Assembly: GCA_009914755.4 (NCBI GenBank)
Contig: CP086569.2
Coordinates: forward strand, 18,272,001 to 18,336,000
Direction: 5' to 3'
From: the human T2T-CHM13v2.0 reference genome, Homo sapiens
DNA: 64,000 bases
Part shown: in pieces, positions 9,560-64,000 of the stretch
How positions within the stretch are numbered: position 1 is the first letter of the stretch
How the letters are laid out: the number at the start of each line of letters is the position of its first letter
Translations under genes and position numbers: made by a program
Notes under the pieces: generated by a model
What the model was told of the DNA's origin: nothing
Database searches by the model: none
What the model saw: only the letters and a program-made list of their open reading frames with translations

Positions 9560-12025
<2,466 letters not shown>

Positions 12026-17094: not shown

Positions 17095-18135
17095 TTATTT
17101 AGATATAGATAGATATAAATATAACTACATAGATAAAGGTATAGACATAGATAATAGAGATTAGATATAGATACTGTTACAAATATATAAATAAATGAAT
17201 ACATATATAGATATATGTATGGGTATGTTTATGACTATAGATATGGATATGTTTATAGATACAGATGTCATCATAGATAGATATATATGTGGAGATAGAG
17301 ATACAGATGTATAGATACATAGGTATTTGGGTAGATATGGTAATATAGATGTAGATATATAGATATATACATATAGGTATCAGCATAGATATGTAGATAT
17401 ATAGACATAGATGTAATTAAAATATAGCTATATTTATAGATAGAGATGTAGTCATAGATATAGCTGTAATTAGAGATATGTTTATAGATATAGATGTGGT
17501 TATAGATTAGATATATTTATAGTTGTAGTAATAAATATAGATGTATTATAGAAATAGATACAGATGTAGTTATATATAGTTTATATGTAGTTATAGATAT
17601 AGATGTAGTTATAGATAGATTTATAGTTATAGATGTAGTTATATAGATGTAGTTTAGATAGATTTATACTTATAGATGTAGTTATAGATATATTAATATT
17701 TATAGATGTAGTAATAGATATAGATGTAGTTACAGATATAGATACTGATGTAGTTACATAGTTAGAGTTTATATTTAGTTATAGACATAGATGTAGTTAT
17801 AGATATATTTATAGTTATAGATGCAGTTATATAGATGTAGTTATAGATATATTGATATAGATGTAGTTATAGATATATTCATAGTTATGGATATAGTTAT
17901 AGATGTACTTATAGATAAAGTATAGTGTAGATATGCTTGCAGTTATAGATGTATAGATATAGATGTAGTCATAGTTTTAGAAGTAGATGTAGTTATAGGT
18001 GTAGTTATAGATATGGTAATAGATATAGATGTAATACAGATATAGATGCAGTTATAGATATAGACATAGTTACAGTTATAAATGTAATTATAGATATAGA
18101 TGTAGTCATAATTATAGATGTATAGACAGTTACTA
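17095..18135. repeat. Degenerate minisatellite, ~1 kb, unit ~18 bp (GATGTAGTTATAGATATA-like)
   Basis: Dozens of imperfect tandem units such as atagatgtagttatagatat and atagatgcagttatagatat. Track ORFs 17177-17386 and 17943-18155 are YIYI-type low-complexity artefacts of this repeat. Confidence 0.85.
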
Positions 18136-22744: not shown

Positions 22745-24010
<1,266 letters not shown>

Positions 24011-26938: not shown

Positions 26939-27623
26939 TTATTTCTTCATTAAACTAGGGCAGGAGAGAAATAAGGGTTTAGAAAATAATTAACTTTAAA
27001 AATATCCTTAAATTAATAACTCTTTTTTCATTTTTAAAAATCCCCTGAGCATAAGAATACATGAGCGCTTTCCATTTTAAATGAATTTTTATCTTTTCGA
27101 TGTTTATTAAGATGTTACAGGATTTGCCGTTTAATCCAGAAGTTGTTCTATCATCAGAAAATAACATGCTACTAAAGAAAACGTAAACTTATTGGATAAA
27201 TTCACAGATATATATTGTGTAGATTCTAAAAGCTGATCTATATTTATTACATTATATTTGCTTTTAAAACCTACTACTTATGGCTTCAGGAAAAAATTCC
27301 CAGGTTATTTTTTTTCTAATCTTGTTTTATTCTCCTGAGATTGATAAGTAACTTATTTATCATGACTAATCTATCATGGCATGGCACATGTTGCAAATGT
27401 ACTCCACATTTTGAGAGTAATATTGATGTATGGATACTTTTAGGCCGTATGGCTATGAGGAAAACTCAATGATCTGGTCGAATACTTCACAAAAAAATGT
27501 TGCTTTGTTTTAGAATATAGTTATGTTTTAAATTTGAGATTGGTCTCTCTCTCTCTCTGTCTCTCTCTTATATGTATGTGTATGTATACATGTGTGTAGG
27601 ATATACATATCTATTAACTATTT

Positions 27624-28013
27624 ATATATCTGTCATTTACCCATTTCTATCTATAACTTTTCTAAGCATTTGGATATATACTTACAATTGAAAATTATTC
27701 TACAGTTTTATACATATATATCTAAATATATACATCTAATATATATATAAATATATATATATAATTATATATAAATATATATTTTATTATACACATAAAT
27801 AATATATTTATAAAAATATATTAGATATATTTAGATATATATGTTTAAATATATATATTTAATATACATTTAATATAGATATATATGTTTAAATATACAT
27901 ATGTTTAAATAGATATCTCTCTGTATATATAACTGTAGAATAATCTACAATTGAAAGTATATATCCAAATGCTTAGAAAAGTCATAGATAGAAATGGGTA
28001 AATGACAGATATA
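27624..28013. repeat. AT-rich palindrome: ~83-bp inverted-repeat arms around a ~225-bp (TA)n-rich spacer
   Basis: Left arm 27624-27706: tatatctgtcatttacccatttctatctataacttttctaagcatttggatatatacttacaattgaaaattattctacagtt. Right arm 27931-28013: aactgtagaataatctacaattgaaagtatatatccaaatgcttagaaaagtcatagatagaaatgggtaaatgacagatata. The arms are reverse complements with ~3 mismatches; the spacer is almost pure TA/TATAAA repeats. Confidence 0.85.
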
Positions 28014-28200
28014 TAAATATATATCTAAATATATATAGATATACATTTGACAGATATATATGACAAATATATAAATATATATCTAAATATATATAGATAT
28101 CTAAAATATAGATATCTAAATATATATAGATATCTAAAATATAGATATCTAAATATATATAGATATCTAAAATATAGATATCTAAATATATATATATATA
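28013..28200. repeat. AT-rich tandem repeat (~33-bp unit) next to the palindrome
   Basis: agatatctaaatatatatagatatctaaaatat repeated about 4 times. Track ORFs 27982-28269 (-) and 28047-28235 (+) are translations of this repeat. Confidence 0.85.
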
Positions 28201-28202
28201 TA

Positions 28203-28441
28203 GTTTTTCTTTTGTTGTTTGTTTTTGTTTGTTAATTTTTGACAAACAGGCTGGAGTGCTGTGGCGCAATCTCAGCTCACCGCACCTCTGCCTCCCAGGC
28301 TCAAAGGAGTTTCACGACTCGGCCTCCTCAGTGGCTGGAATTACAGGCCTGTGTCACCACATCTGGGTAAATTTTTTGTGTTTTTAGTAGAGATGAGGTT
28401 TTTCCACGTTGCCTAGGCAGATCTCAAATTCCTGGCCTCAA
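28203..28441 (-). mobile_element. Alu SINE (partial)
   Basis: acaggctggagtgctgtggcgcaatctcagctcaccgcacctctgcctcccaggctcaaaggag ... tttagtagagatgaggtttttccacgttgcctaggcagatctcaaattcctggcctcaag. Confidence 0.8.
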
Positions 28442-28749
28442 GTATGTTTGGTTTTTAAATCTTCCATAAATAGTACTAACCCATGTATATCTTCATATAA
28501 CTTGCTCTTTTAGCTTAACATTAGTTTTTTCAGGTATATTCATGTTGAGATGTGTGTGTGTGTGTGTTTGTGTGTGTTTATACACACACAGAGTATATTT
28601 TGTTTTTATATCTTCCATAAATTATATCAACCCATATATATCTTTACATAACTTTCTCTTTTAACTTAACATTAGATTTTGCAGGTATATTTGTGTTGAG
28701 ATGTGAGATTGTGTGTATGTGTGTGTGTGTGCTTATACCTACACAGAGT
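28442..28749. repeat. 2 x ~152-bp tandem duplication, each copy ending in a (GT)n-rich tract
   Basis: Copy 1 is ...aaatcttccataaatagtactaacccatgtatatcttcatataacttgctcttttagcttaacattagttttttcaggtatattcatgttgagatgtgtgtgtgtg...cacacacagag. Copy 2 is ...atatcttccataaattatatcaacccatatatatctttacataactttctcttttaacttaacattagattttgcaggtatatttgtgttgagatgtgagattgtgtgtatgtgtg...cctacacagag. Confidence 0.8.
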
Positions 28750-34539: not shown

Positions 34540-35350
34540 ATGACTTACATATTCGGTATCATATATTATATGCTACCTTATTTGCTACCTTATTTGCTAA
34601 CTTATATGCTACCTTATTTGTCTTCTGTTGATTTAACATTATATATCACTCTCTTTCCCTTTGTGTGTGTGTGTATATATGTAATATATAACATATATTA
34701 TATATTACTCCTATATTTATATTGTATAAATATATGAATATGTAATATTTGTTATAAGTATAATATAGATAACATGCAATTTATCATTGTAACCATTTTA
34801 AATTATACAATTCAGTGGCACACAGTACATTCACAATATTGTGCAACCAACCAACACCCCTATCTAATCCCAGAACATTTTCAAAACATATGTATTTATT
34901 TTGTAAATATGTATTTATTTTGTAAATATGTATTTATTTTGTAAATATGTATTTAAACATATATTCATATATATTGATATATTTATATATAAATATCTAC
35001 ATATTTATATATAAATATGTAAAAATGTATTTATATATTATATATAAATATATAAAATGTATGTATTTATATATAATATATAAATATATAAATATATAAA
35101 ATGTACATATTTATATATACTTATTTCTAAAATATATATTTATATATTTAATATATGTATTTATTCCTAAAATATATATTTATATATTTTTAATATATTT
35201 ATTTATTCCTAAAATATATATTTATATACTTACATTTATTGATTTGTAAAATATATTATATATTTATCTAATATATTTATTTGTAAAATATATGTATTTA
35301 TACTTATCTTTTATGTATATATACTTATCTTTTAAATATATAATTATTTT
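34540..35350. repeat. AT-rich low-complexity region with nested tandem repeats
   Basis: 12-bp tgctaccttattt units (34568-34620); (TA)n; a 23-bp unit tattttgtaaatatgtatttat repeated 4 times (34893-34975); multiple taaaatatatatttatatatt repeats. Confidence 0.85.
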
Positions 35351-35989
35351 AAAATTATATACATATGAATTTATTTTTAAATATATGTTTTATGCCATGA
35401 AGTATCAAAAGTGTATATAAGTATAGGTTTTTAAAAACCTGCAACAAGCATTTCAATAGCAATTCTCATTCAACTCAGGAAAAAGAGAAATAAAACTAGG
35501 CAGTGATTTTTATCAAAAGTGTGAGGTGAAGGAGGCCTTAGATTCAACAATGAGATAAGAAATGTAAGCAACATTTTGGAAGTTGATGTATGGGGTGAGA
35601 ATTGCCCTATTAGAATATGGCACGTTATATCTTGTTTTTAGGTCTCTATGCTCACTGATCAACAAAATGCCTGTCTTTTTAAGTAACTTTTGCAACCCTA
35701 GGATAAGCACAGTTAGTAAGCTTTAGCTACACCCTTTGTGGAGAATTTCGGACAGTTAGCAATGTGATCTTTCTTTCTTTCTTTTTTTTTTTTTTTTTTT
35801 TGCATAATTCAGTAGGTGCATTTGCATTGGTGTTTGCTTTGGATTCCCTAGAAGCACGTTCAGAACAGAGGTTCATAGGAAATTTGTTAGAGAGTGTTCC
35901 TGGGAAAAACACACAGTAAAATAGGAACATTTCTGAGGTCATATGGTAAATCTGTGTTTATCCTGTTGTGGGATCTTCAAATTGTCCTC

Positions 35990-53911: not shown

Positions 53912-54190
53912 TTACAGCCAAGGTGTCCATTGGTTAAACATATTCCAGGGCCCTGAGTGTTGAAGCTCCTTTTTTCTACTTTCTGTTCGTTCTCTTATTT
54001 CTTTGACCTTTTCAGTAATGATTTCTGACTGGTTAATGAAATAGCAACATTCTTCTCGTAAGAAGAGGCAGGCTCCTCCCCTTTCAGCTGTTAATAAGTC
54101 TAGGGCTCTCCAGTTTTGAAGAGCTACCACAGCTAGAGAATTAAGCTGGCTTTGTAGGGTCACTAGGGAGTCGGCCACTCGTTCCATATC
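53912..54190 (-). pseudogene. env TM remnant with an intact immunosuppressive-domain region; membrane anchor and tail missing
   Basis: Track ORF 53912-54187 (-) reads [91 protein letters not shown]. Syncytin-1 (HERV-W Env TM), recalled from memory, reads [74 protein letters not shown]... Confidence 0.8.
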
Positions 54191-54525: not shown

Positions 54526-54970
54526 CTAGTATTGTGATGTTGCAAGGAATGCTACACTTTCTTGAAAGATCCCACCACTTTTCCTTATCAAAGGCAATAT
54601 CCTCAAAGGCCTGAAACTCTCAAAGGATTTCTTCAGTAAGAAAACTAAACCTTGAGCTTTTAATTGTCTAACGATATCCTGTAATCCTTTGAGAGCTTCA
54701 GGCCTTAAGGGATATTGACTTTGATAAGGAAAAATGGTGGGATCTTTTAGCCTGATTTGGACTGGATGGGCATTCTTTGCTCTTCCAAATTGTCCTTCTA
54801 AGGCCCAGACCTCAAAGTTGATTCCTTCTTCAGGTAGGAAACAATGAATAGGTAATTTGTTCCCCATATTAATGTAGATAATGGTCCTGGCTTTGGCTAA
54901 TATGTCCCTCCCTAATAAGAGTGTGGGACTTTTGGGCTTAACAAGAAAGGCATGTGAAAAGAGCAAAATC
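54526..54970 (-). pseudogene. Protease C-terminus and RT N-terminus remnant; the rest of pol is deleted
   Basis: Track ORF 54526-54966 (-) reads ...HAFLVKPKSPTLLLGRDILAKARTIIYINMGNKLPIHCFLPEEGINFEVWALEGQFGRAKNAHPVQIRLKDPTIFPYQSQYPLRPEALKGLQDIVRQLKAQGLV... The gamma-retroviral protease end (HxFL..P.CP.PLLGRDxL.K) and RT start (VWA...A..A.PV.I.LK.......QYP...EA..G.) are recognisable. Only ~340 bp separate it from env TM. Confidence 0.75.

Positions 54971-62206: not shown

Positions 62207-64000
<1,794 letters not shown>

What the first reader, a model, noticed from the sequence alone, without database searches (positions are those of the whole stretch)
27624..28200. AT-rich ~390-bp palindrome (83-bp near-perfect inverted arms, TA-repeat spacer) followed by a 33-bp AT-rich tandem array
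Arms 27624-27706 and 27931-28013 are reverse complements with ~3 mismatches. They are separated by ~225 bp of (TA)n/(TATAAA)n. A four-copy agatatctaaatatatatagatatctaaaatat array follows immediately. Long AT-rich palindromes can extrude hairpins or cruciforms. In humans, palindromic AT-rich repeats (PATRRs) are hotspots for double-strand breaks and recurrent translocations, and they are unstable in cloning and sequencing. This locus is much shorter than the classic PATRRs, but it may still be length-polymorphic or a site of assembly error.
Basis: partly seen in the sequence, partly recalled or inferred. Interest (0 to 1): 0.5.

Follow-up and report, generated by a model that had tools for sequence, protein, structure and literature searches.

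The report
AT-rich spaced inverted repeat plus minisatellite
This is a real but ordinary piece of non-coding primate DNA: two 88-base inverted copies separated by 225 bases of TA-rich filler, followed by a short 33-base tandem repeat. It resembles the palindromes that cause recurrent human translocations, but it lacks the central symmetry that makes them dangerous.

Summary
Arms 27619-27706 and 27932-28019 are reverse complements at 84/88 positions (95.5%). A 225-bp spacer that is 91.6% A+T separates the arms. A 33-bp array of 3.8 copies (97% matches) lies at 28075-28199, 55 bp after the right arm rather than immediately after it. As single-stranded DNA the locus folds far better than shuffled sequence on both strands (z = -18.5 and -21.6).

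It is not a classic PATRR. The two spacer halves are no more reverse-complementary than dinucleotide shuffles (z = 0.8). The halves of the whole palindrome are only 78.6% identical, with 22 gap columns. The hairpin recovers 52% of the half-duplex energy, against 79-95% for published PATRR11 alleles. Total length (401 bp) is in the PATRR range, so the difference is missing central symmetry, not shortness.

The best reading is an old inverted duplication inside a roughly 0.6-kb AT-dinucleotide-rich tract beside the tail of an antisense Alu. It probably has no function and is at most a weak hairpin or slippage site. The 33-bp array is the part most likely to vary in copy number. No independent assemblies could be reached, so polymorphism and age remain untested. 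Interest is low.

The parts
27619..27706 (.). Left arm of the inverted repeat (88 nt, 77.3% A+T; single-copy, not low-complexity sequence)
   Evidence: Pairs with 27932-28019 at 84/88. The repeat finder I1. Only two copies of its 35-nt core exist in the window. A sensitive blastn finds no other copy.
27707..27931 (.). TA-rich low-complexity spacer (225 bp, 91.6% A+T, 62.9% AT/TA steps). It carries scattered ATATCTAAATATATA-type motifs in both orientations and an off-centre hairpin of its own.
   Evidence: Composition. The halves align to each other's reverse complement no better than dinucleotide shuffles (score 46, null 39 +/- 8.9, z = 0.8); the direct alignment scores 49. Folded alone it gives -34 kcal/mol, z = -3.8, with the main stem at about 27712-27745 / 27815-27845. 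Motif map.
27932..28019 (.). Right arm of the inverted repeat (88 nt, 75.0% A+T)
27709..27732 (+). 24-nt motif TATACATATATATCTAAATATATA just inside the left arm. It is a direct repeat (23/24) of 28012-28035 and shares the core motif of the 33-bp array.
   Evidence: Local alignment and motif map. D1 family.
28012..28035 (+). Second copy of the 24-nt direct repeat, overlapping the outer end of the right arm. Together the two copies bracket the spacer plus right arm (303 bp start to start).
28020..28074 (+). Transition zone of degenerate minisatellite units, with duplications of the arm-end motif GACAGATATATA (28004, 28049, 28062)
   Evidence: TRF 66-bp period row 28054-28202.
28075..28199 (+). 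33-bp AT-rich minisatellite, 3.8 copies at 97% matches, unit ATAGATATCTAAATATATATAGATATCTAAAAT. The unit is itself a near-palindrome (28/33 self-complementary in one rotation) and contains two AGATATCT palindromes.
   Evidence: TRF. In-register copies and self-complementarity. Exact unit matches. Fold of 28038-28215 gives -31.2 kcal/mol, z = -5.4.
28204..28443 (-). Old, 5'-truncated Alu in antisense orientation. Its A-tail (T-rich on the + strand, about 28200-28245) directly abuts the minisatellite.
   Evidence: blastn finds at least 18 other copies in the window at 65-75% identity. Sequence read. The Alu assignment rests on my recognition of the consensus.
27544..27608 (.). (TC)n and (TG/TA)n microsatellites on the left flank of the inverted repeat
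   Evidence: TRF rows 27544-27568 and 27577-27608.

Best explanation
This is a non-coding, most probably functionless structural feature of a human or great-ape chromosome. It is an old local inverted duplication whose two 88-bp copies (95.5% identical) bracket 225 bp of TA-rich low-complexity DNA. The whole lies inside a roughly 0.6-kb AT-dinucleotide-rich tract beside the A-tail of an old antisense Alu. The 3' part of that tract has recently amplified into a 33-bp minisatellite.

Shown:
- the anatomy;
- strong hairpin potential on both strands;
- absence of central symmetry;
- an energetic cost of hairpin or cruciform formation far above that of PATRR alleles.

Inferred, origin: a TA-rich tract that is self-complementary by composition let a nascent or broken 3' end fold back or switch template. 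It copied the adjacent unique 88 bp in reverse and returned to the forward template at the ATATCTAAATATATA motif. That motif now sits as a 24-nt direct repeat on both sides of the spacer plus right arm.

Inferred, age: the arms differ by 4.5%. At 0.5-1.1e-9 substitutions per site per year per lineage, that suggests an event tens of millions of years ago.

Inferred, behaviour: the long asymmetric spacer blocks centre-nucleated (S-type) cruciform extrusion. The 88-bp stem can form only when about 400 nt are single-stranded at once, which exceeds the 100-200-nt eukaryotic Okazaki initiation zone. The locus is therefore tolerated and stable. At most it is a weak site of fork pausing or slippage under replication stress. 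The young 33-bp array is the part most likely to vary in copy number and to give sequencing trouble.
For: - Arms, spacer and array coordinates and identities.
- Folding z-scores of -18.5 and -21.6.
- Spacer not palindromic beyond its composition (z = 0.8; direct alignment scores as well).
- Energetics with one parameter set: observed Gstru -111.9, Gds -427.7, so dG = +102 kcal/mol and a ratio of 0.52. Idealised perfect palindromes built from either half give dG of about +5 and a ratio of 0.98. Random 436-nt windows give +234 +/- 10.
- Published PATRR11 alleles have dG of 8-26.5 and ratios of 0.79-0.95 (PMC3197554).
- AT/TA dinucleotide content is 63% in the spacer and array and 17.5% in the window. 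The FRA16C AT-dinucleotide-rich sequence has 66% (PMC6765107).
- The Alu tail abuts the array.
- The arm is single-copy in the window and absent from three collections.
- There is no target-site duplication.
- Literature on the need for central symmetry and on spacer effects: PMC1851657, PMC3834812, PMC8053094, PMC10164571, PMC7999016.
- Host: an L1 ORF2 fragment at 10739-12025 differs from human L1 ORF2p at about 4 of 420 residues.
Against: - No orthologous or allelic sequence could be retrieved. The age, the direction of the duplication and the stability are inferred from one sequence.
- The 24-nt direct repeat could simply be the minisatellite motif rather than a template-switch scar.
- The energy comparison mixes ViennaRNA (Mathews 2004 DNA) values with published mfold values. 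The idealised palindrome controls land in the published range, which suggests the scales are comparable.
- AT-rich spacers melt easily, so C-type extrusion or hairpin formation under stress cannot be excluded.
- The arms were not checked against a repeat library (Dfam is not available here).
Confidence: 0.7

Rival explanations
1. It is a genuine PATRR-type rearrangement hotspot. The sequence in hand would be an asymmetric (or clone- or assembly-degraded) allele, while longer symmetric alleles in the population extrude cruciforms and break at the centre.
For: Two of the three published common PATRR features are present: an AT-rich centre with less AT-rich ends, and an AT-rich flank carrying a direct repeat of about 30 bp, as at PATRR8. 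The 401-bp size is in the PATRR range. PATRR11 has asymmetric alleles of 63-434 bp that rarely translocate. PATRRs are known to be unstable in clones.
Against: The centre shows no residual reverse-complement signal above composition, so a simple central deletion does not explain it. The arms have diverged by 4.5%, which argues for long undisturbed persistence. A+T content is 85%, against more than 90% for PATRR11/22 and 97-99% for PATRR8. The energy ratio is 0.52, below every PATRR11 allele, including the non-translocating ones. PATRR8 primers are absent. No paper contains the arm or array k-mers.
Confidence: 0.07
2. It is a non-autonomous DNA transposon (MITE-like) whose long terminal inverted repeats are the two arms and whose interior has decayed into AT-rich simple sequence.
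For: The architecture of inverted termini around a non-coding interior fits superficially.
Against: There is no target-site duplication at any plausible boundary: ATATCTATTAAC / TATATCTAAATA at 27619/28019, and likewise at the other boundaries. Identity does not peak at the termini. There is no other copy in the 64-kb window and none in the metagenome, prokaryote-genome or viral collections, although those collections are weak tests for a primate repeat. The 88-bp arms are much longer than the terminal repeats of the human MITEs I know of (from memory).
Confidence: 0.05
3. It is a functional AT-rich element, such as a DNA-unwinding element or replication origin, a scaffold/matrix attachment region, or a nucleosome-excluding boundary. 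The hairpin potential would be incidental or regulatory.
For: A+T is very high and AT/TA content is 63% over about 0.5 kb. Such tracts melt easily. The window holds two other long AT-rich or GATA-type tracts, so the region is rich in them.
Against: Nothing in the sequence distinguishes it from neutral microsatellite or minisatellite growth at an Alu tail. No conservation or chromatin data are available. The young, homogeneous array (97%) points to ongoing slippage rather than constraint.
Confidence: 0.05
4. It is transcribed and makes a long hairpin RNA (a precursor of a miRNA or endo-siRNA, or a double-stranded RNA substrate).
For: An 88-bp stem would be a good double-stranded RNA. Weak sub-threshold Rfam hits to AT- or TG-rich miRNA families lie nearby: mir-3149 at 28081-28164, 23.8 bits against a gathering score of 100; mir-297 at 27568-27628, 27 bits against 90.
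Against: No Rfam family reaches its gathering score in the window. The weak hits sit in low-complexity sequence and do not cover the arms. There is no evidence of transcription or of a gene nearby.
Confidence: 0.03
5. It is an assembly, cloning or amplification artefact (a fold-back chimera).
For: Palindromic AT-rich DNA is notoriously error-prone in cloning and sequencing.
Against: Fold-back chimeras give identical arms joined head to head. Here the arms differ at 4 of 88 sites and are separated by 225 bp of asymmetric sequence. The right arm is joined on both sides to sequence that shares motifs with the left side.
Confidence: 0.03

Closest known systems
Palindromic AT-rich repeats at constitutional translocation breakpoints (PATRR11, PATRR22, PATRR17, PATRR8)
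   Same: It is several hundred bp long and has an AT-rich centre with less AT-rich ends. A further AT-rich region on one side carries a direct repeat of about 30 bp (PATRR8 has 35-bp and 28-bp flanking repeats). Predicted single-strand hairpin potential is strong.
   Different: It is not a nearly perfect, spacerless palindrome. Pairing is limited to the outer 88 bp and the 225-bp centre is asymmetric. Whole-element arm identity is 78.6%, against 92.7-100%. A+T is 85%, against more than 90-99%. Hairpin energy is 52% of the half-duplex energy, against 79-95%. No known translocation or polymorphism is attached to it.
Spaced or divergent inverted repeats (quasi-palindromes) studied with Alu inverted repeats in yeast (Lobachev laboratory)
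   Same: Two homeologous inverted copies (95.5%) are separated by a non-palindromic spacer. The predicted behaviour follows the same rules: instability falls steeply with spacer length and with mismatches, and returns when long single-stranded DNA is exposed.
   Different: The arms are 88 bp rather than about 320 bp and are not transposon copies. The spacer is TA-rich and partly self-pairing, which could lower the barrier relative to the random spacers used experimentally.
AT-rich minisatellites of the rare fragile sites FRA16B (33 bp) and FRA10B (about 42 bp), and AT-dinucleotide-rich sequences of common fragile sites such as FRA16C
   Same: It has a 33-bp AT-rich, self-complementary tandem unit. 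AT/TA dinucleotide content is about 63%, close to the 66% of the FRA16C element.
   Different: The unit is unrelated to the FRA16B consensus (19/33 identical, which is the shuffle expectation). It has only 3.8 copies (125 bp). Normal FRA16B alleles have 7-12 copies, fragile alleles up to 2000, and demonstrated fragile AT-dinucleotide-rich sequences are kilobases long.

Membership tests
PATRR (translocation-associated palindromic AT-rich repeat) | Nearly perfect palindrome of several hundred bp without a spacer (arm identity 92.7-100% in PATRR8; match 95.7-98.9% and loops of 4-41 bp in PATRR11 classes) | tested here: not met
   Only the outer 88 bp pair well (95.5%). The halves of 27602-28037 are 78.6% identical with 22 gap columns. 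The spacer halves are no more reverse-complementary than shuffles (z = 0.8). Reference values.
PATRR (translocation-associated palindromic AT-rich repeat) | [quoted passage not shown] | tested here: met
   The centre is 91.6% A+T and the arms are 77.3% and 75.0%. Feature as listed in PMC4255720.
PATRR (translocation-associated palindromic AT-rich repeat) | Another AT-rich region flanking the palindrome | tested here: met
   28020-28199 is 85.5-89.6% A+T and includes a 33-bp direct repeat. PATRR8 has 35-bp and 28-bp flanking repeats.
PATRR (translocation-associated palindromic AT-rich repeat) | Overall A+T above 90% (PATRR11/22) or 97-99% (PATRR8) | tested here: not met
   85.1% over 27602-28037. 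Reference values.
PATRR (translocation-associated palindromic AT-rich repeat) | Low free-energy cost of going from duplex to hairpin (dG = Gstru - Gds/2 of 8-26.5 kcal/mol in PATRR11 alleles) | tested here: not met
   dG is +102 kcal/mol with a ratio of 0.52. Idealised perfect versions of the same sequence give about +5. Published table. The software differs (ViennaRNA versus mfold).
PATRR (translocation-associated palindromic AT-rich repeat) | Being one of the described loci (tested for PATRR8 only, by its flanking primers) | tested here: not met
   PATRR8-512F and PATRR8+227R have no match with up to 3 mismatches in the window. PATRR11 and PATRR17 sequences or primers were not obtainable from the library. 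Their published A+T content or size does not fit.
PATRR (translocation-associated palindromic AT-rich repeat) | Breakpoint of constitutional translocations at the palindrome centre; size polymorphism in the population | not testable with these tools
   No human population or breakpoint data are available. Attempts to fetch independent assemblies failed.
AT-rich minisatellite fragile sites (FRA16B / FRA10B type) | Tandem AT-rich unit of about 33-42 bp | tested here: met
   33-bp unit, 89.6% A+T, 3.8 copies at 97%.
AT-rich minisatellite fragile sites (FRA16B / FRA10B type) | Sequence relationship to the FRA16B consensus ATATATTATATATTATATCTAATAATATATC/ATA | tested here: not met
   The best cyclic, two-strand match is 19/33. 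Shuffled-unit null: mean 19.6, sd 1.45, max 25. Consensus taken from PMC2875025.
AT-rich minisatellite fragile sites (FRA16B / FRA10B type) | Expansion to kilobases (up to about 2000 copies; normal alleles 7-12 copies; 14 copies stall forks in vitro) | tested here: not met
   3.8 copies, 125 bp, in this sequence. Reference values.
AT-dinucleotide-rich sequence (flexibility island of common fragile sites) | AT/TA dinucleotides are a majority of steps (66% in the FRA16C element; background below 16%) | tested here: met
   62.9% in the spacer and 63.2% in 28020-28202, against 17.5% in the window. Reference.
AT-dinucleotide-rich sequence (flexibility island of common fragile sites) | Length associated with fragility (3 kb or more shown to drive fragility; more than 400 bp reported to perturb forks under stress). 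Also a run of at least 7 consecutive 300-nt segments folding below -40 kcal/mol. | tested here: not met
   There are two blocks of 225 and 183 bp interrupted by the right arm. Only 2 consecutive 300-nt segments fall below -40 kcal/mol (ViennaRNA was used rather than Mfold).
MITE / terminal-inverted-repeat DNA transposon | Target-site duplication flanking the inverted termini, and multiple dispersed copies | tested here: not met
   No duplication at boundaries 27619/28019, 27602/28037 or 27624/28014. Single copy in the window. No repeat library was available, so the copy-number test is weak.

The most novel reading that the evidence does not exclude
The locus could be an undescribed PATRR-type site whose allele in this assembly is an asymmetric or degraded variant. 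Longer alleles with a symmetric centre would segregate in the population and act as a hotspot for double-strand breaks, inversions of the spacer, or palindrome-mediated translocations with other PATRRs.
Probability: 0.06. Interest if true: 0.55.

Novelty: new member of a known kind. Interest (0 to 1): 0.15.

Why it matters
It matters little as it stands. The human genome holds many AT-rich inverted repeats: one catalogue counts 718 near-perfect palindromes longer than 200 bp (quoted in PMC7999016). Another analysis finds about one cruciform-prone long inverted repeat with a short loop every 3 Mb on chromosome 1 (PMC3834812).

The useful result is a clean negative. The locus has the outward look of a PATRR: an AT-rich centre, GC-containing ends and an AT-rich repeat flank. 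It lacks central symmetry, which published work identifies as the property that governs cruciform extrusion and translocation frequency. It therefore illustrates that length and A+T content alone over-call 'PATRR-like' sites.

Practically, the 33-bp array and the TA-rich spacer are plausible places for copy-number variation, read-depth drops and local mis-assembly. If population data showed symmetric alleles, the locus would become a candidate new palindrome-mediated rearrangement site.

Tried and rejected
1. Identity with known PATRR loci. PATRR8 flanking primers are absent. PATRR11 and PATRR17 primers or sequences are not printed in the accessible papers.
2. Literature search for six 21-25-nt k-mers from the arms and the array: 0 papers.
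3. Independent copies of the locus. An exact 35-mer from the arm and a 32-mer from the unique left flank gave 0 hits in metagenome contigs and in prokaryote genome contigs. The arm 35-mer gave 0 hits in viral contigs.
4. Fetching other assemblies through ORFs that overlap or neighbour the locus. Exact look-ups of the 95-aa and 62-aa ORFs were not on record. A homology search with the 95-aa ORF, in which the 33-bp unit is in frame, returned nothing at E <= 0.001.
5. FRA16B relationship: rejected, because the unit similarity equals the shuffle expectation.
6. The idea that the whole 436 bp (27602-28037) is a degenerate spacerless palindrome. A gapped alignment suggested this. It was rejected because the centre aligns equally well in direct orientation and no better than shuffles. 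The outward extension 27602-27618 / 28020-28037 is mostly the minisatellite motif.
7. Rfam: nothing at gathering score in the window. Only weak hits to low-complexity miRNA families appear at E of 0.015-0.55.
8. Transposon reading: no target-site duplication and no second copy.
9. Gene context: ORFs of 90 aa or more are L1, ERV and Alu-derived or low-complexity. No host gene was recognised, so the chromosomal locus could not be named.
Full report
**What is there.**

The inverted repeat is the longest within 1 kb of itself anywhere in the 64-kb window. The repeat finder gives arms 27619-27732 and 27906-28019, 114 nt at 88%. The near-perfect block is 27619-27706 against 27932-28019, with 84 of 88 positions complementary (95.5%). 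The mismatches are at 27655, 27684, 27691 and 27693.

27624-27706 pairs with 27932-28014, with 4 mismatches. The literal coordinates give 60 mismatches.

Between the arms lie 225 bp (27707-27931) that are 91.6% A+T, with 62.9% of dinucleotide steps being AT or TA. The window average is 17.5%.

The 33-bp array occupies 28075-28199, with 3.8 copies at 97% matches. The array starts 55 bp after the arm, not immediately. The intervening 28020-28074 holds degenerate units and two extra copies of the arm-end motif GACAGATATATA.

**Is it more than chance?** Yes. A 35-nt core of the arm occurs exactly twice in the window, once on each strand, against 0.00 expected from shuffles. As single-stranded DNA, 27595-28045 folds to -115.7 kcal/mol on the + strand and -117.1 on the - strand. 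Dinucleotide shuffles average about -38 (z = -18.5 and -21.6), and none of 100 shuffles does as well.

**Context.** The window is primate DNA.
- It holds many Alu copies.
- It holds a degraded ERV, with a TLV_coat env hit at 53912-54187, and L1 fragments.
- One L1 ORF2 fragment (10739-12025) differs from human L1 ORF2p at only about 4 of 420 aligned residues. A human or other hominine source is therefore likely.
- No host gene was recognised, and no Rfam family reaches threshold.

Immediately right of the array lies a T-rich stretch (about 28200-28245). It leads into an old, 5'-truncated Alu in antisense orientation (28204-28443, sequence). The AT-rich tract therefore sits on the Alu's A-tail. 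From general knowledge, such tails are a classic seed of AT-rich micro- and minisatellites. Left of the repeat are (TC)n and (TG/TA)n microsatellites.

**Is the centre part of the palindrome?** A gapped alignment first suggested that the whole of 27602-28037 (436 bp) is one degenerate palindrome. That does not survive a control.
- The two halves of the spacer align to each other's reverse complement with score 46. Dinucleotide shuffles give 39 +/- 8.9 (z = 0.8).
- The direct, non-inverted alignment scores 49.
- The innermost 30, 60 and 90 nt on each side give z = -1.1, -0.4 and 0.3.

The centre is therefore TA-rich filler that is self-complementary only by composition. It has a modest off-centre hairpin of its own (-34 kcal/mol, z = -3.8). 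Needle-style identity between the two halves of the whole element is 78.6%, with 22 gap columns.

**Energetics.** I followed the published PATRR procedure, dG = Gstru - Gds/2 (PMC3197554), using ViennaRNA DNA parameters.

| Sequence | Gstru | Gds | dG (kcal/mol) | Gstru / (Gds/2) |
|---|---|---|---|---|
| Observed element | -111.9 | -427.7 | +102 | 0.52 |
| Idealised perfect palindromes built from either half | -205.7 / -212.2 | -420.8 / -434.6 | about +5 | 0.98 |
| Outer arms joined by a 4-nt loop | -78.4 | -195.4 | +19 | 0.80 |
| Random 436-nt windows | | | +234 +/- 10 | |
| Published PATRR11 alleles | | | 8 to 26.5 | 0.79 to 0.95 |

The PATRR11 ratios are my arithmetic on the published table. 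The locus is thus a strong outlier relative to ordinary sequence. It is still far from every PATRR11 allele, including the asymmetric alleles that almost never translocate. The software differs from the published mfold values. The idealised controls fall in the published range, so the scales look comparable.

**Comparison with PATRRs.** PMC4255720 lists three common features.
1. A nearly perfect palindrome of several hundred bp. This is not met.
2. An AT-rich centre with less AT-rich ends. This is met: 91.6% against 75-77%.
3. Another AT-rich region on a flank. This is met. The flank even has a 33-bp direct repeat, reminiscent of the 35-bp and 28-bp repeats flanking PATRR8.

At 401 bp it sits among PATRR11 (445-450 bp), PATRR8 (about 350 bp) and PATRR17 (about 190 bp).

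What is missing is central symmetry, and the literature treats that as decisive.
- Asymmetric PATRR11 and PATRR17 alleles extrude poorly and translocate rarely (PMC1851657; PMC3197554).
- A 434-bp PATRR11 allele with imperfections clustered near the loop is predicted not to extrude at all (PMC3834812).
- At physiological salt, extrusion starts from 8-10 bp at the centre.

Only an 8-bp AATATATT palindrome sits at the geometric centre here (27815-22, read).

Work with Alu inverted repeats in yeast shows the following.
- Fragility falls sharply once the spacer exceeds 8 bp (PMC8053094).
- Recombination falls 300-fold from a 12-bp to a 100-bp spacer (PMC10164571).
- Gross rearrangements fall about 20-fold from 12 to 200 bp (same paper).
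- The eukaryotic Okazaki initiation zone, 100-200 nt, limits lagging-strand hairpins (PMC7999016).

Forming the 88-bp stem needs about 400 nt to be single-stranded. Widely spaced repeats do become reactive in long single-stranded DNA, so a low level of stress-dependent instability is not excluded.

**The array.** The 33-bp unit is built from two AGATATCT palindromes. It is 28/33 self-complementary in one rotation. The array region folds better than shuffles (z = -5.4).

It belongs to the general class of AT-rich minisatellites typified by FRA16B, but it is not related to that unit. The best match is 19/33, and the shuffle mean is 19.6 (consensus from PMC2875025). With 3.8 copies it is far below normal FRA16B alleles (7-12 copies) and fragile alleles (up to 2000 copies).

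The spacer and array have the AT/TA richness of fragile-site AT-dinucleotide-rich sequences (63% against 66%). They total only about 0.4 kb in two blocks. Demonstrated fragility involved elements of 3 kb or more (PMC6765107). Only two consecutive 300-nt segments fold below -40 kcal/mol, where the cited criterion asks for seven.

**Origin (inference).** The motif ATATCTAAATATATA occurs just inside the left arm (27718), just outside the right arm (28021) and in every array unit. A 24-nt direct repeat (23/24) at 27709-27732 and 28012-28035 brackets the spacer plus right arm.

This fits a model in which the ancestral locus was [unique 88 bp][AT-rich minisatellite][Alu tail]. A fold-back or template-switch event in the self-complementary TA-rich tract would have copied the unique 88 bp in reverse and returned to the forward template at the minisatellite motif. 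Snap-back from short inverted repeats as a source of palindromic duplication is documented (PMC7999016).

The direct repeat may instead be nothing more than the minisatellite motif. I cannot tell which arm is ancestral.

Arm divergence is 4/88, or 0.047 after Jukes-Cantor correction. At 0.5-1.1e-9 substitutions per site per year per lineage (my assumed rates), this implies about 21-47 My if there has been no gene conversion. That again points to a stably inherited structure. The 97%-homogeneous array must be much younger or under ongoing slippage.

**Rivals.**
- A MITE-like transposon is unlikely. There is no target-site duplication and no second copy.
- An assembly fold-back artefact is unlikely. 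The arms differ at four sites and are separated by asymmetric sequence.
- A hairpin-RNA gene has no support.
- A role as an unwinding element or matrix-attachment region cannot be tested here.
- The most interesting surviving alternative is that symmetric alleles exist in the population and that this is an asymmetric variant of an undescribed PATRR. I give it about 6%.

**What could not be done.** No human or primate genome collection is reachable with these tools. Scans of metagenome, prokaryote-genome and viral contigs for the arm, scans of the first two for a unique flank, and protein-based look-ups through overlapping ORFs all returned nothing. No paper contains the k-mers. Polymorphism, orthology and chromosomal position therefore remain open. 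The decisive checks are listed under next steps.

**Verdict.** This is an ordinary spaced, AT-rich inverted repeat with an adjoining minisatellite: a new instance of a well-known kind, with low predicted cruciform and translocation potential. Interest is low.

Noticed in passing
window 54565-54629 and 54683-54747: A second local inverted duplication: 65-nt arms, 91% complementary, 53-nt spacer. It lies inside a degraded endogenous retrovirus (pol-like ORF 54526-54966 on the - strand; env TLV_coat hit at 53912-54187). It is not AT-rich, and its spacer is shorter than that of the main finding.
   Followed up: partly
window 17100-18105; 22762-22928; 23228-24002: There are long GATA-type microsatellites: (TAGATA)n of about 1 kb and (AGAT)n of about 0.17 kb and 0.8 kb. 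They account for the strong GC skew at 22-24 kb. The 33-bp unit of the finding is built from the same TAGATA/TATCTA half-sites.
   Followed up: no
window 34880-35360: Another AT-rich tract (about 480 bp, 55% AT/TA steps; GC is 25.7% over 34-36 kb). It is made of a 20-bp repeat and of degenerate 42-44-bp minisatellites, with weak overlapping inverted repeats at 70-73%.
   Followed up: partly
window 28441-28728: A 151-bp tandem duplication (2 copies, 84% matches), each copy ending in a (TG)n run. It lies directly after the truncated antisense Alu that abuts the minisatellite.
   Followed up: no
window 10739-12025 (+), 9796-10762 (-), 62370-63998 (-): There are L1 fragments. The 428-aa ORF2 piece at 10739-12025 is about 99% identical to human L1 ORF2p in the PDB (8c8j, 8uw3). 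It is therefore a very young L1, which suggests a human or hominine source. It sits next to an inverted L1 piece at 9796-10762.
   Followed up: partly
window 27568-27630 and 28081-28164: There are sub-threshold Rfam hits to low-complexity miRNA families: mir-297 and mir-466 on the TG/TA microsatellite, and mir-3149 on the 33-bp array. Scores are 20-27 bits against gathering scores of 85-100, which most likely reflects chance and composition.
   Followed up: yes
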